In this document: one piece after another, positions 6,001 through 9,000 of the stretch
Layout of the letters: the number at the start of each line of letters is the position of its first letter
Numbering within the stretch: the first letter of the stretch is position 1
Source: a virus
Lineage: Duplodnaviria; Heunggongvirae; Uroviricota; Caudoviricetes
Length of the DNA: 40,023 bases
Reading direction: 5' to 3' (one strand)
Virus record (IMG/VR): IMGVR_UViG_2874945390_000002
Coordinates: 1-40,023 of that record
Position numbers: made by a program

Positions 6001-9000
6001 TCGCTGAAAAATACGCGTTAGTCGAACAATGGCGACAACAATTCCCTGTTGAAGCGATGTGTCAGGTATTTGGTGTATCCAGGAGCGGTTATTACAACTG
6101 GGTACAGCATGAACCCTCAGACAGAAAACAAAGTGATGAGCGGCTAAAACTGGAGATTAAGGTGGCACATATCCGCACTCGCGAAACATATGGAACCCGG
6201 CGGCTCCAGACGGAGCTGGCAGAGAATGGCATCATCGTTGGTCGTGACCGACTGGCACGTCTTCGTAAGGAGCTAAGGCTACGCTGTAAGCAGAAACGCA
6301 AGTTCAGAGCGACTACGAACCCGAACCACAATCTGCCAGTTGCGCCAAATCTGCTGAACCAGACGTTCGCTCCTACAGCACCAAATCAGGTCTGGGTGGC
6401 GGACCTGACGTATGTTGCCACACAGGAGGGATGGTTGTACCTCGCTGGCATCAAAGATGTTTATACGTGCGAAATTGTCGGCTACGCCATGGGAGAGCGC
6501 ATGACAAAAGAGCTGACAGGTAAAGCCCTGTTTATGGCGCTCAGGAGCCAGCGCCCACCTGCCGGGCTAATCCACCACTCTGATCGAGGTTCACAGTACT
6601 GCGCATACGATTACCGGGTCATACAGGAGCAGTTTGGTCTGAAAACATCAATGTCGCGTAAAGGTAACTGTTACGACAACGCTCCGATGGAAAGCTTCTG
6701 GGGAACGCTGAAAAATGAGAGCCTGAGCCACTATCGTTTTAATAACCGGGATGAAGCCATCTCAGTAATACGGGAATACATTGAGATTTTCTACAATCGT
6801 CAGCGTCGTCACTCTCGTCTGGGGAATATCTCCCCGGCAGCCTTCAGGGAAAAATATCATCAGATGGCTGCTTAAAAAAAGAACAAATGGTAGTGTCCGC
6901 TATTGCCAGTACACCTCAATACATCGCATGATTCTTAAACCGTGCCAGCATGGATTGTCGTACTCACCATCATTAAGACGCTGTACGGCCTCAACATAAT
7001 CAATGGTTGTATTGTCAATTTTTATGCCATGAGCTGTTGCTTCTGGTTTGAATTCAAAATTGTTCATAATGTTTGTTCCTTTGCTGGTGGAATAATCGTG
7101 TAACCCGCTCTTTTTGCCATCCACAGAAATGTATCCATGCAACCAACGAATTCATTATCCAACAGATGTTTTGAGTAAATTACTTTCCCATTTTCAATGG
7201 TTAGCAACACTCTTACTTTTTCGTGTATTACCCCCCCTGCTCAGGCTCATTCTGCATTTTATTTCGTGCTGATGTCTCCATTATTTTATCTCCCATAAGC
7301 CTTGCGCAAATACAGGTTGGCTATATGAAGATAAGAATCTCCATGTTGTGCAATGAGGCAGGCAGTTTTATACGATGCCTTATGTTTCAGGAAGGTCATA
7401 ACATAATCTCCTGCGAATAAAGGTTGCAACAATCCCCGGCGATAAAACCGTAATAAACATTCAGGGAATATTTATTGTGATTGCGCTAATTCTTTTTCGG
7501 CAGCAGCTTTTGCATATTCACATGCAAAATTTAGAATTTCGCTGCCAAGTACTTTTGTTTCGTGATTACTGGACATATGTAATACCTGTGTTGCATGCAA
7601 TAAATGATAAACATTTACCGCAAATGAATCAGGCTCCAGACAAATGCCTTCGTAATTATCTTGCTGTGAGGTTGTTTCTGTCATTGCTCCTGAAGTGCAT
7701 GCGAGCCTGTTTTTGACAATTCTCTTTCCTCTAATCACTATATCGGCAACATCTATTGCCTTTACAACCTCCGGGAGAAGTTCCTGGTTTGTATAATCAA
7801 AGTTATCAACATGGAGAACAGTTATGTTTTCGAACTTTTTCATGGCTTCCTCAGCTGACTTATATGTTCTGCTATATAGCGAGTCTCAGAAGTGTTTTCA
7901 TATTGAGACTGTTTCCGCAATGATTGATAAAAATGTTCGCATGTACCTTGAGGGGCGAAGCGGCGATTATGTCACCATTGGTATTGGTTCTTCTGTAGAA
8001 GAGCTTCGCGAGATAAGGGGCAAACTTATTGAGATGCGTCATGGTGTTGCTGCTCCTCACTTTTTGGTTGCTCCGGAGGAGTAACCTCACCAGTTAATAG
8101 CCACATCGGATCGCAGCCAAGAATATTTGCCAGTGGGATAAGCATACTGATAGTTGGTTCATACTCTCCGCTCTCCCACTGGATGATAATTTCTTCATCG
8201 AGATCGAGCAGCCTGGCGAGTTCGGCGGTTGTTAAGCCGCAGGCTTCGCGTTGGGTGCGAATCCGATTCTGTGAGTTAATAGCTAAATTTTGTTTGCGCG
8301 AACGCGCTGATTTGGCAAATAAATCAACATTAGCGCCGGGAGCACTACTACCTGCAAGGGAATTCATAGTTGATGAGATGATGTCTTGTGCAACATCTAA
8401 GAGATTGATGACGTCATGGTTTGAAGCGGTACCACCTAATAGTGCCGCTTGAGCACAAATCAACAGAGAGTTTACGGAATAAGAGCCATGTTTATCATTT
8501 AACATTACATTCACCTCACTTGTTTTTACTCGGTGAGGTGAATGTAGCGTTATGCGTTATTTTTGACAATAGCAAAATGCTAATATTTGCTATTTTTTTT
8601 ATAGTGCGTTGTATTTATTATTCATTTTCGTTTTTGTCGATCGGCATTCTTGATGCTTTAACAGCCATTAGCTCATCAAGTAGTTTGTCAAAATTACGCT
8701 TCTTTTCAGATAACTCACTAATTATCCTGTCTTTTTCACTTTCAGGCATTTGTCTGAATAACTCAATAAGTCGAGTCTCTCTTTTAGTTAGTTGCTGTTC
8801 ATCAATAGTTGTCTCACCAGTCTTTTCCCTCATTTTAGCCAGATGCCATGGGGAATCCAGCAATGAGTGGGGGATGTCAAACCATCCTTCCGATAGGCTC
8901 AGTCGCCCCTCGAGTTTTCTAGCGAGAGCAGTTCCCATATTCCTGCGCTTAGTCATTATTTGGCTTATAAGTGATGGTGATATCTCACATTTTAACGCCA

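What the first reader, a model, noticed from the sequence alone, without database searches (positions are those of the whole stretch)
8507..8545. Perfect 13-bp inverted repeat that would sequester the SD of the second HTH regulator
Arms ACATTCACCTCAC (8507-8519) and GTGAGGTGAATGT (8533-8545) with a 13-nt spacer sit directly over the ribosome-binding site of the minus-strand HTH gene (start 8505). In the mRNA the GAGGTG SD lies in the 3' arm and would pair with the 5' arm. The same palindrome could instead be a dimeric protein operator. Either way it is a discrete regulatory element not explained by the coding annotation.
Basis: seen in the sequence. Interest (0 to 1): 0.45.

Follow-up and report, generated by a model that had tools for sequence, protein, structure and literature searches.

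The report
Promoter-embedded hairpin masking a prophage ribosome site
A conserved hairpin between a prophage's repressor gene and its first early-left gene probably lets that gene be translated only from its own repressor-controlled promoter and not from RNA that reads through from the repressor gene, a trick already known from phage T4 and insertion sequences.

Summary
The inverted repeat is real and slightly longer than reported: perfect 14 bp (8506-8519 / 8533-8546), extendable to about 20 bp, and the longest in the window. It lies in the PL/OL-equivalent region of a lambdoid prophage, between a CI-like repressor gene and the first early-left gene (HTH2). In 15 distinct relatives (repressors 52-100% identical) the helix persists through changes on both sides of the stem. 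The operator TTAGCATTTTGCTAT, a TTGnnn -35 and the -10 hexamer TACATT are invariant. The distal arm begins inside that -10, so the predicted start (about 8534) leaves it untranscribed. No terminator follows the repressor gene. Best reading (confidence 0.52): read-through RNA from the repressor gene locks the HTH2 SD and AUG (24 kcal/mol to open), while RNA from the gene's own promoter does not (9 kcal/mol). This matches T4 gene e and IS10 fold-back inhibition. The arms resemble neither the repressor's operators nor anything tied to HTH2's invariant HTH domain, and the arm-to-arm span varies (35-44 bp), which argues against a dimer operator. A strand-asymmetry test was inconclusive and no transcription start is mapped. 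In the phiP27 and ASU11 immunity types, comparable repeats are operator copies. New member of a known kind; moderate interest.

The parts
8533..8546 (-). Distal (mRNA-5') arm TACATTCACCTCAC. It carries the anti-SD CACCTC, and its first six bases are the predicted -10 hexamer.
   Evidence: Invariant TACATT in all 15 distinct relatives, even where its pairing partner varies.
8520..8532 (-). 13-nt A-rich loop (CGAGUAAAAACAA).
   Evidence: Loop length is 9-20 nt and the sequence is not conserved among relatives.
8506..8519 (-). Proximal arm GTGAGGTGAATGTA, containing the HTH2 Shine-Dalgarno GAGGTG (8517-8512).
8500..8552 (-). Extended helix (20-nt arms, 90% complementary) that also pairs the HTH2 start codon (8505-8503).
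8541..8569 (-). Predicted sigma-70 promoter of the early-left operon: -35 TTGTCA (8569-8564), 17-nt spacer, -10 TACATT (8546-8541). Predicted start at the conserved A, about 8534.
   Evidence: 9/12 match. Fixed 17-nt geometry, invariant TTG and TACATT, and an A at the 7th base after the -10 in 10 of the 12 family members scored. Not mapped experimentally.
8569..8583 (-). OL2-like repressor operator TTAGCATTTTGCTAT abutting the -35. It has the same motif as the cI-cro operator at 9139-9153.
   Evidence: TAGC-N5-GCTA: 3 hits against 0.29 expected. Near-invariant in all relatives: one base differs in L093.
8544..8558 (-). OL1-like operator AACGCATAACGCTAC in the promoter spacer, abutting the -10.
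   Evidence: Conserved pattern WWAGCR-N3-RGCTAC across relatives, e.g. TTAGCATATAGCTAC in L096. A weaker match, so inferred.
8026..8505 (-). HTH2: the first gene of the early-left operon. It has an immunity-specific N-terminal ~80 aa and an invariant XRE-type HTH (aa 83-139).
8618..9073 (-). CI-like repressor gene (151 aa, HTH_3, no S24 peptidase domain). It is the source of the proposed read-through RNA, and no intrinsic terminator lies between it and HTH2.
9139..9153 (.). Perfect palindromic operator TTAGCACGTTGCTAA in the cI-cro intergenic region. Weaker copies at 9087-9101 and 9102-9116.

Best explanation
The repeat encodes an RNA helix that tells two transcripts of the same gene apart.

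The 112-nt interval 8506-8617 is the PL/OL-equivalent of a lambdoid prophage. Two repressor operators sit on a promoter (-35 at 8569-8564, -10 at 8546-8541) that drives HTH2, the first early-left gene. The CI-like repressor gene just upstream has no terminator, so in a lysogen (or during establishment) its transcript runs across this region. That RNA contains both arms, so the HTH2 SD and AUG are locked in a 14-20 bp helix and HTH2 is not translated. This may also expose the untranslated RNA to Rho, which would keep the rest of the early-left operon silent.

When repression is lifted, RNA polymerase starts at about 8534, at the end of the distal arm. The distal arm is then not in the RNA, the RBS is free, and HTH2 is made.

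Shown here: the helix, its conservation by compensatory change, the conserved promoter and operator layout, the absence of a terminator, and the predicted energy difference. Inferred: the transcription start, actual read-through, the translational effect, and any Rho polarity.
For: (1) Conservation. 24 loci (15-17 distinct sequences, depending on how much flanking sequence is compared), with CI 52-100% identical, all keep a helix running from the -10 to the RBS/AUG. The inner stem differs on both sides: ACCTCAC/GTGAGGT, TTTTCAYC/GRYGAAAA, TTCCGTC/GGCGGAA.
(2) Formal count on alignment A4. 82% of cells are paired against 36-49% when the partner is slid, 6 pairs change on both sides, and the covariation score is 0.25 against 0.146 for shuffles (0 of 500 reach it). 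RNAalifold recovers a 10-pair core.
(3) Promoter. The tool finds TTGTCA-17-TACATT. TTG, the 17-nt spacing and TACATT are invariant. An A is the 7th base after the -10 in 10 of the 12 family members scored. T1 and A2 of the hexamer stay invariant even where their pairing partners vary (pair 1 is broken in 8 of 15 sequences and pair 2 in 3 of 15), so there is a constraint beyond pairing.
(4) Repressor operators flank the promoter, as at lambda PL.
(5) No terminator-like site lies between cI and HTH2 on that strand, nor in any relative.
(6) Opening the RBS (-14..+3) costs 24.1 kcal/mol in read-through RNA and 9.3 in RNA from the predicted start. The direction is the same in 12 of 12 relatives.
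(7) The HTH2 start ranks 3rd of 69 ORF starts in the window for opening cost (22.9, median 7.3). The only two higher are IS4 transposase genes.
(8) Natural control. L111-L113 (CI 42%) keep the operator and promoter layout but have an intrinsic terminator after cI and no hairpin.
(9) Precedent. In T4 genes e, soc, 49 and I-TevI the late promoter lies in the DNA encoding the 5' strand of an RBS-sequestering helix (PMC3014915).
Against: - No transcription start or read-through has been measured. The promoter is a 9/12 consensus match in the window and weaker (8/12) in distant relatives.
- Hairpin stability shows no bias for the mRNA strand over its complement (6 against 9 of 15, p = 0.49). G.U pairs (10 cells) do not clearly outnumber unpaired cells (about 11 in the core). 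A DNA-level palindrome would therefore fit the covariation equally well.
- Most of the covariation comes from a split between two clades, so independent events are few.
- In a leader of 24-29 nt, any repeat between the -10 and the ATG must cover the SD, so that overlap is not independent evidence.
- The terminator/hairpin association is imperfect. L201 has both. Type E has neither, on an unmapped promoter.
- RNA from the predicted start still needs 9.3 kcal/mol to open the RBS, because of pairing with the coding region.
Confidence: 0.52

Rival explanations
1. Plain 5' UTR attenuator. The gene's own transcript starts upstream of the distal arm, so the hairpin is present in all HTH2 mRNA. It keeps translation low, or makes it depend on a factor that opens the helix.
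For: The hairpin is strong and conserved. The transcription start is only predicted. TATTGT within the invariant operator / -35 block (around 8572-8567) could in principle serve as a -10.
Against: The only promoter the scan finds on this strand places the start at the end of the distal arm. That promoter's elements and spacing are invariant across relatives. No conserved -35 exists for an upstream alternative, because the sequences upstream of the operator diverge. The same geometry, with the distal arm over or just after the -10, recurs in phiP27-type and C-type immunity regions.
Confidence: 0.12
2. DNA operator. The palindrome, which spans -12 to +29 of the promoter, binds a type-specific protein that represses PL independently of the CI operators. 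Candidates are the Cro-like protein, the immunity-specific N-terminal domain of HTH2, or an unidentified factor.
For: - It overlaps the -10 and the start, where repressors act.
- There is no strand bias in stability.
- In other immunity types the equivalent repeats are operator copies. In ASU11 the arms are AATAG-N6-CTATT sites on the -35 and -10. In the phiP27 family the arms derive from GATACTTTAGTATC. In L011, CACCATCAAT occurs three times.
- The arms co-inherit with the HTH2 N-terminal domain.
Against: - The arms have no counterpart in the cI-cro operator region (best 8 of 14, p about 0.9) or elsewhere in the window. The real operator motif is different and invariant.
- HTH2's HTH domain is identical across five immunity types with unrelated repeats.
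- The N-terminal domain is predicted only as two low-confidence helices, with no DNA-binding fold.
- The distance between the conserved outer half-sites varies by up to 9 bp (span 35-44), which a rigid dimer would not tolerate.
- Fourteen contiguous paired bases per arm is more than protein half-sites usually need.
Confidence: 0.14
3. RNA processing or stability element. The roughly 20-bp helix is an RNase III site, or a 3'-exonuclease barrier, that defines and stabilises the 3' end of the repressor mRNA. Any effect on HTH2 is secondary.
For: The extended helix is about two turns long, the size class of RNase III substrates (established knowledge: lambda N-leader and sib sites). The repressor gene has no terminator hairpin of its own.
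Against: A stabiliser could sit anywhere downstream of the stop codon. Here, in several unrelated immunity families, it always runs from the next promoter's -10 to the next gene's RBS/AUG. In the window subgroup, where the ATG moved 4 nt downstream, the helix extends to cover it. Distant relatives have only 10-13 bp with mismatches, which is short for RNase III.
Confidence: 0.12
4. No function: a by-product of an inverted duplication or of recombination at a mosaic junction.
For: The region is highly mosaic.
Against: The helix is maintained by compensatory substitutions, and by a matched TTTTC/GAAAA difference in both arms, across repressors down to 52% identity.
Confidence: 0.03

Closest known systems
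Phage T4 genes e (lysozyme), soc, 49 and I-TevI: RBS-sequestering hairpin with a late promoter inside it
   Same: Transcripts from upstream promoters contain both strands of a helix that pairs the SD and/or AUG, and they are poorly translated. A promoter lying in the DNA that encodes the 5' strand gives a shorter RNA without that strand, and this RNA is well translated (PMC3014915). The geometry here is the same: the -10 is inside the distal arm and the predicted start is at its end.
   Different: In T4 the switch is temporal (early versus late, using the gp55 late sigma) in a lytic phage. Here the inner promoter is a sigma-70-type, repressor-controlled early promoter of a temperate phage, and the upstream RNA would come from the repressor gene. 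The switch would therefore separate lysogeny from lytic development. Nothing here has been tested experimentally.
IS10/Tn10 'fold-back inhibition' of transposase translation from outside transcripts (Davis, Simons and Kleckner 1985, Cell 43:379; reference confirmed, content from established knowledge)
   Same: Read-through RNA from outside includes a segment upstream of the element's own start site that pairs with the RBS. The element's own transcript lacks it. The purpose is insulation from upstream transcription. Within this window, the only RBSs costlier to open than HTH2's belong to two IS4 transposase genes.
   Different: That case is a mobile-element transposase rather than a phage early operon. 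In IS10 the external transcription is accidental, whereas here it is the phage's own repressor gene.
Lambda immunity region: terminator (timm) after cI-rexA-rexB, then OL/PL and the N leader
   Same: The gene order and logic match: cro <- OR -> cI, then a repressor-controlled leftward early promoter with operators over the -35 and -10. The lambda N leader also contains a structure that limits N translation (established knowledge).
   Different: Lambda insulates PL genes from PRM transcription with a terminator. This family has none in a 90-112 nt gap. Relatives that do have a terminator (L111-L113, type D) lack the hairpin. The first early-left gene here is an HTH protein, not an N antiterminator, and there is no boxB-like 5-bp stem.
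OL operators of the phiP27 and ASU11 immunity types
   Same: They occupy the same position relative to the repressor gene and HTH2, and they also appear as inverted repeats spanning the promoter and leader.
   Different: There the arms are recognisable copies of the cognate cI-cro operators (p = 0.009-0.09 across the six arms). In the window's family they are not (p about 0.9). The phiP27 arms are additionally more complementary to each other than operator consensus requires (13 of 14 inverted against 7 of 14 direct), so a dual role is possible there.

Membership tests
Promoter-embedded RBS-sequestering hairpin (T4 gene e type / IS10 fold-back inhibition) | A helix pairs the SD and/or start codon with an upstream segment. 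| tested here: met
   14-bp perfect helix, about 20 bp extended, covering GAGGUG and the AUG. Kept in 15 distinct relatives with compensatory changes.
Promoter-embedded RBS-sequestering hairpin (T4 gene e type / IS10 fold-back inhibition) | The gene's own promoter starts transcription within or after the 5' strand of the helix. | tested here: inconclusive
   Predicted only. TTGTCA-17-TACATT has its -10 inside the distal arm, and its elements and spacing are invariant across relatives. The start is inferred at about 8534. No 5' end data are available.
Promoter-embedded RBS-sequestering hairpin (T4 gene e type / IS10 fold-back inhibition) | Transcription from upstream enters the element. | tested here: inconclusive
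   No intrinsic-terminator-like site lies between the repressor gene and HTH2 on that strand, or in any relative. Actual read-through, Rho termination and roadblock by bound repressor cannot be assessed with these tools.
Promoter-embedded RBS-sequestering hairpin (T4 gene e type / IS10 fold-back inhibition) | The long transcript is translated much less than the short one. | not testable with these tools
   Thermodynamic proxy only: 24.1 against 9.3 kcal/mol to open the RBS, with the same direction in 12 of 12 relatives.
Lambdoid repressor operator (OL/OR site) | The sequence matches the operators in the cognate cI-cro region. | tested here: not met
   Best match 8 of 14, p about 0.9 against shuffled arms. 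No other copy with 2 or fewer mismatches near the immunity region. The real motif, TTAGCA-N3-TGCTAA, is different.
Lambdoid repressor operator (OL/OR site) | Fixed half-site spacing among relatives that share the binding protein. | tested here: not met
   The span between the outer ends is 35-44 bp and the loop is 9-20 nt, while the true operators keep exact spacing.
Autoregulatory operator of the HTH2 protein | The operator sequence tracks the DNA-binding domain. | tested here: not met
   The HTH domain (aa 83-139) is invariant across five immunity types whose upstream repeats are unrelated. Conversely, L002 and L061 have the same repeat with a diverged HTH region.
Intrinsic (Rho-independent) terminator | A G+C-rich stem followed directly by a U tract. 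| tested here: not met
   The scan does not call it. The stem is followed by AAUGUUAAAUG on the mRNA strand.
Any curated RNA family (Rfam 15) | A covariance-model match. | tested here: not met
   Only a chance-level snoRNA hit elsewhere (E = 2) in 7000-10500.
Lambda-type nut site / boxB | A short (about 5 bp) stem with a GNRA-like pentaloop, read by an arginine-rich N protein encoded downstream. | tested here: not met
   The stem is 14-20 bp with a 13-nt loop. The downstream protein is an XRE-type HTH with no arginine-rich N terminus.

The most novel reading that the evidence does not exclude
The palindrome may work at both levels. As RNA it would mask the RBS in read-through transcripts. As DNA it would be the binding site of a still unidentified immunity-specific factor, most plausibly the variable N-terminal domain of HTH2 or a complex of it with the repressor. 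That would give these prophages a second, immunity-specific autoregulatory lock on the early-left promoter. The phiP27 family already shows arms that are repressor operators and are also selected for mutual complementarity, so dual DNA/RNA coding of one sequence could be a general design of this module.
Probability: 0.1. Interest if true: 0.65.

Novelty: new member of a known kind. Interest (0 to 1): 0.42.

Why it matters
Temperate phages must keep early lytic genes silent while continuously transcribing the adjacent repressor gene. Lambda does this with a terminator. This family appears to do it in about 100 nt without one: the anti-RBS sequence is placed inside the early promoter, so the choice of transcription start decides whether the first early gene can be translated.

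If confirmed, this would:
- extend the T4 / IS10 'promoter inside a hairpin' principle to the lysogeny switch;
- explain why these compact immunity modules (repressor, operators, promoter, hairpin and the N-terminal part of HTH2) are inherited as one block;
- give annotators a rule for such repeats in prophage immunity regions: test them against the cognate operators first, since in sister immunity types similar repeats are simply operator pairs.

It also bears on how leaky expression of early-left genes, which are often toxic or act in exclusion, is avoided in Shigella and E. coli lysogens.

Tried and rejected
- **First idea, a universally conserved SD-trapping RNA hairpin in front of all HTH2 genes: rejected.** Five or more upstream types exist. 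Types D and E have none. In ASU11 the apparent hairpin is two operators on the -35 and -10, and the true start codon lies further downstream.
- **Repeat as repressor operator.** Rejected for this family but accepted for phiP27 and ASU11.
- **Repeat as HTH2 autoregulatory operator.** Rejected because the HTH domain is invariant across types.
- **Strand-asymmetry test (G.U against A.C, sense against antisense stability).** Inconclusive.
- **Terminator reading.** Rejected.
- **Rfam.** Nothing.
- **Genome-contig scans** with an alignment and with the single protein. Patterns matched but no relative was confirmed.
- **E. coli complete genomes.** Only 20 of 5,426 carry this PL region and all have one allele, so there is no within-type variation to use.
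- **MAFFT alignment anchored on the ATG (A3).** It put the two subgroups' 3' arms out of register, so the hairpin-only alignment A4 was used instead.
- **AlphaFold model of HTH2.** The N-terminal domain was too poor (pLDDT 38-63) to justify a fold search.
- **Literature searches.** No description of this element in lambdoid immunity regions or in phiP27.
- **First shuffle script.** Timed out and was rerun.
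Full report
**1. Observation**

The inverted repeat is present exactly where reported. It is perfect over 14 bp (8506-8519 / 8533-8546) and extends to 20-nt arms at 90% complementarity (8500-8519 / 8533-8552). It is the longest perfect hairpin-type repeat in the 40-kb window. Only 1.5% of 200 dinucleotide-preserving shuffles contain any perfect 13-mer of this kind. The surrounding 151 nt fold at -35.4 kcal/mol, against -18.1 +/- 3.1 for shuffles (z = -5.6). On the minus strand the proximal arm holds GAGGUG six bases before the ATG at 8505, and the extended helix also pairs that ATG.

**2. Context**

The minus strand carries a 151-aa CI-like HTH gene (8618-9073), a 112-nt gap, and then the 159-aa HTH gene (8026-8505; HTH_3 at aa 82-136). 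A Cro-like gene diverges on the plus strand from 9178. Annotated relatives show the same order: cro <- | -> cI -> second HTH gene -> early-left genes. This holds in E. coli prophages, phiP27, Stx phages, ASU11, phi467 and PhiR49_2. The gap is therefore the positional equivalent of lambda OL/PL, and the 'second HTH regulator' (HTH2 below) is the first gene of the early-left operon.

The region is mosaic. Window 9499-8311 (cro, cI, the gap and HTH2 codons 1-65) moves as one block. The HTH domain and everything downstream belong to another module shared with phiP27. HTH2's HTH domain (aa 83-139) is invariant across at least five immunity types, whose N-terminal ~80 aa and upstream regions are unrelated.

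**3. Operators and promoter**

The cI-cro region contains a perfect TTAGCACGTTGCTAA (9139-9153). A one-mismatch copy lies at 8569-8583 in the gap. The core TAGC-N5-GCTA occurs 3 times in the window against 0.29 expected. The scan tool finds one promoter-like site on the minus strand of the gap: TTGTCA (8569-8564), 17 nt, TACATT (8546-8541). The operator abuts the -35. A second, weaker operator-like site (8544-8558) fills the spacer up to the -10. The -10 hexamer forms the first six bases of the distal arm.

**4. Relatives of the same immunity family**

The CI-like protein has homologs from 97% down to 52% identity. DNA around 12 of them, plus further viral and metagenome loci, was recovered. 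All have CI, a 90-112 nt gap and then an HTH2-like gene.

Across 18 aligned sequences the following are invariant:
- the operator TTAGCATTTTGCTAT (one base differs in L093);
- the TTG of the -35;
- the exact 17-nt spacing;
- GCTAC plus TACATT.

An A is the 7th base after the -10 in 10 of the 12 family members scored.

Every one has a helix that begins at (T)ACATTC inside the -10 and ends at GAATGT(A), on or next to the start codon. The inner stem differs on both sides: ACCTCAC/GTGAGGT in the window group, TTTTCAYC/GRYGAAAA in most distant members, and TTCCGTC/GGCGGAA in L100.

On a hairpin-only alignment (A4, 15 distinct sequences):
- 82% of cells pair, against 36-49% when the partner is slid;
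- six pairs show changes on both sides;
- the covariation score is 0.25 against 0.146 for shuffles, with 0 of 500 shuffles reaching it;
- RNAalifold recovers a 10-pair core.

Most of this signal comes from one deep split, so the number of independent events is small.

T1 and A2 of TACATT never vary, although their partners do (pair 1 is broken in 8 of 15 sequences and pair 2 in 3 of 15). This points to a constraint beyond pairing, as expected for a -10 hexamer.

**5. What the arms are not**

- They have no counterpart in the cognate cI-cro region (best 8 of 14, p about 0.9) or elsewhere in the window.
- They cannot be the site of HTH2's HTH domain, which is identical in phages with unrelated repeats. 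Conversely, L002 and L061 keep the repeat with a diverged HTH.
- The span between the conserved outer ends varies from 35 to 44 bp, and the loop from 9 to 20 nt. The real operators keep exact spacing.
- An AlphaFold model gives a confident HTH domain, but only two low-confidence helices for the immunity-specific N-terminal domain. That offers no support for a second DNA-binding module.
- There is no terminator signature and no Rfam match.

**6. Mechanism proposed**

The -10 lies inside the distal arm, so transcription from this promoter is predicted to start at about 8534. The resulting RNA would lack the anti-RBS arm. The repressor gene has no terminator, in the window or in any relative, so its RNA should cross the gap and contain both arms.

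Opening the RBS (-14..+3) is predicted to cost 24.1 kcal/mol in the read-through RNA and 9.3 in the promoter-proximal RNA. The direction is the same in 12 of 12 relatives.

Among 69 ORF starts in the window, HTH2 ranks third for opening cost (22.9; median 7.3, sd 4.4; CI-like 4.5, Cro-like 4.7). The only higher values belong to two IS4 transposase genes with a hairpin against their ATG.

A natural control supports the link with read-through. L111-L113 (CI 42% identical) keep the operator and a TTGATA-17-TATATT promoter, but they have an intrinsic terminator 13 nt after the repressor stop codon and no hairpin over the next gene. Type D likewise has a terminator and no hairpin.

The association is not perfect:
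- L201 has both a terminator and a helix running from the -10 to the ATG.
- Type E has neither.

**7. Comparison with what is known**

The logic is that of T4 genes e, soc, 49 and I-TevI. There the late promoter lies in the DNA encoding the 5' strand of an RBS-sequestering helix, so early read-through RNA is silent and late RNA is translated (PMC3014915). It is also the logic of IS10 fold-back inhibition of outside transcripts (Davis, Simons and Kleckner 1985; reference seen, content from established knowledge). Lambda reaches the same end with a terminator after cI-rex. I found no description of such an element in lambdoid immunity regions.

**8. Caveats and rivals**

- No transcription start is mapped.
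- Stability shows no preference for the mRNA strand over its complement (6 against 9 of 15, p = 0.49), and G.U pairs do not clearly outnumber unpaired cells. The covariation alone therefore cannot tell an RNA helix from a DNA palindrome.
- In sister immunity types, similar repeats are operator pairs. In ASU11 the arms are AATAG-N6-CTATT sites on the -35 and -10, and the true start codon is further downstream. In the phiP27 family the arms derive from GATACTTTAGTATC, although they are also more complementary to each other than operator consensus requires.

Rivals kept: a plain 5' UTR attenuator (0.12), a DNA operator for an unidentified type-specific factor (0.14), an RNA processing or stability element (0.12), and no function (0.03).

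**9. Verdict**

It is a new member of a known kind of control in a new setting, the lysogeny switch of a lambdoid prophage probably from Shigella boydii. Interest is moderate.

Noticed in passing
window 8026-8505 (junction about 8262-8310); alignment A1: HTH2 is a mosaic protein. Its XRE-type HTH domain (aa 83-139) is invariant across at least five immunity types, while the N-terminal ~80 aa are immunity-specific and inherited with the repressor, operators and promoter. The recombination junction lies inside the gene. No homolog has a tested function (PHROG label 'CII-like regulator' only).
   Followed up: partly
window 22584-24045 and 30431-31892: Two IS4 copies (442-aa transposase, Pfam Nterm_IS4 + DDE_Tnp_1) lie in inverted orientation, 99% identical, flanking 6.4 kb like a composite transposon. 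Each has AATCCGGAAAC-N8-GTTTCCGGATT plus T6 directly against the transposase ATG. These give the highest RBS-opening costs in the window.
   Followed up: partly
window 3345-3644 and 5655-5954; ORF 6057-6875: A 300-nt perfect direct repeat with 2310-nt spacing lies next to an IS3-family transposase ORF (MCQVFGVSRSGYYNW...). This probably reflects IS insertions or duplication in the prophage early-left region.
   Followed up: no
window 8568-8594: An AT-rich 9-bp hairpin (AATAGCAAA / TTTGCTATT) overlaps the OL2 operator and is followed by T8 on the plus strand only. It looks like a weak terminator for antisense (plus-strand) transcription entering from the HTH2 side. It is not conserved in distant relatives.
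   Followed up: partly
window 7824-8084 (+) and 7472-7843 (-): A plus-strand 86-aa ORF (PHROG 6104, E = 3e-49; equals phiP27 L09) converges on HTH2 and overlaps its 3' end by 59 nt. The next minus-strand gene (123 aa, PHROG 5451, equals phiP27 L08) has a weak match (E = 3e-4) to the N-terminal part of the HTH2 family profile.
   Followed up: no
L003 5444-5521 and 6224-6294; L189: In the phiP27 immunity type, six copies of a 14-bp GATAC-N4-GTWWC operator occur: three in cI-cro and three upstream of L10. Two of them form the 14-17 bp inverted repeat over the L10 SD. They share non-consensus bases only in the inverted sense, and all their imperfections are G.U on the mRNA strand. This suggests one sequence serving both as operator and as anti-RBS helix.
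   Followed up: partly
L201 (repressor 40% identical to phiP27 L11), about 130-160 nt after the repressor stop codon: A further, unrelated immunity module has a 13-bp helix (TCATCTCATCGGC / GCCAATGAGATGA) running from a -10-like TATCAT to the start codon of the next gene, despite a terminator after the repressor gene. The 'promoter-to-ATG helix' design may recur widely.
   Followed up: no
window 8331-8347 (-): A terminator-like site (TAGTGCTCCCGGCGCTA + ATGTTGATTT) lies inside the HTH2 coding region, about 160 nt after its start. It may be chance, or a place where untranslated read-through RNA ends.
   Followed up: no
window 9087-9116: Two weaker operator-like sites (TTAGCCAAATGCTTT and ATAGCGTATTGCTGC) lie directly adjacent (15-bp centre-to-centre) next to the repressor start. 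This spacing is unusual compared with lambda's 23-24 bp.
   Followed up: no
(genome contigs): Both scans of the species-representative genome collection matched 86-138 peptide patterns, but tblastn confirmed none. The same protein is found in Shigella, E. coli and Klebsiella by the protein search. The module seems absent from the chosen representative genomes, or the confirmation step failed.
   Followed up: no
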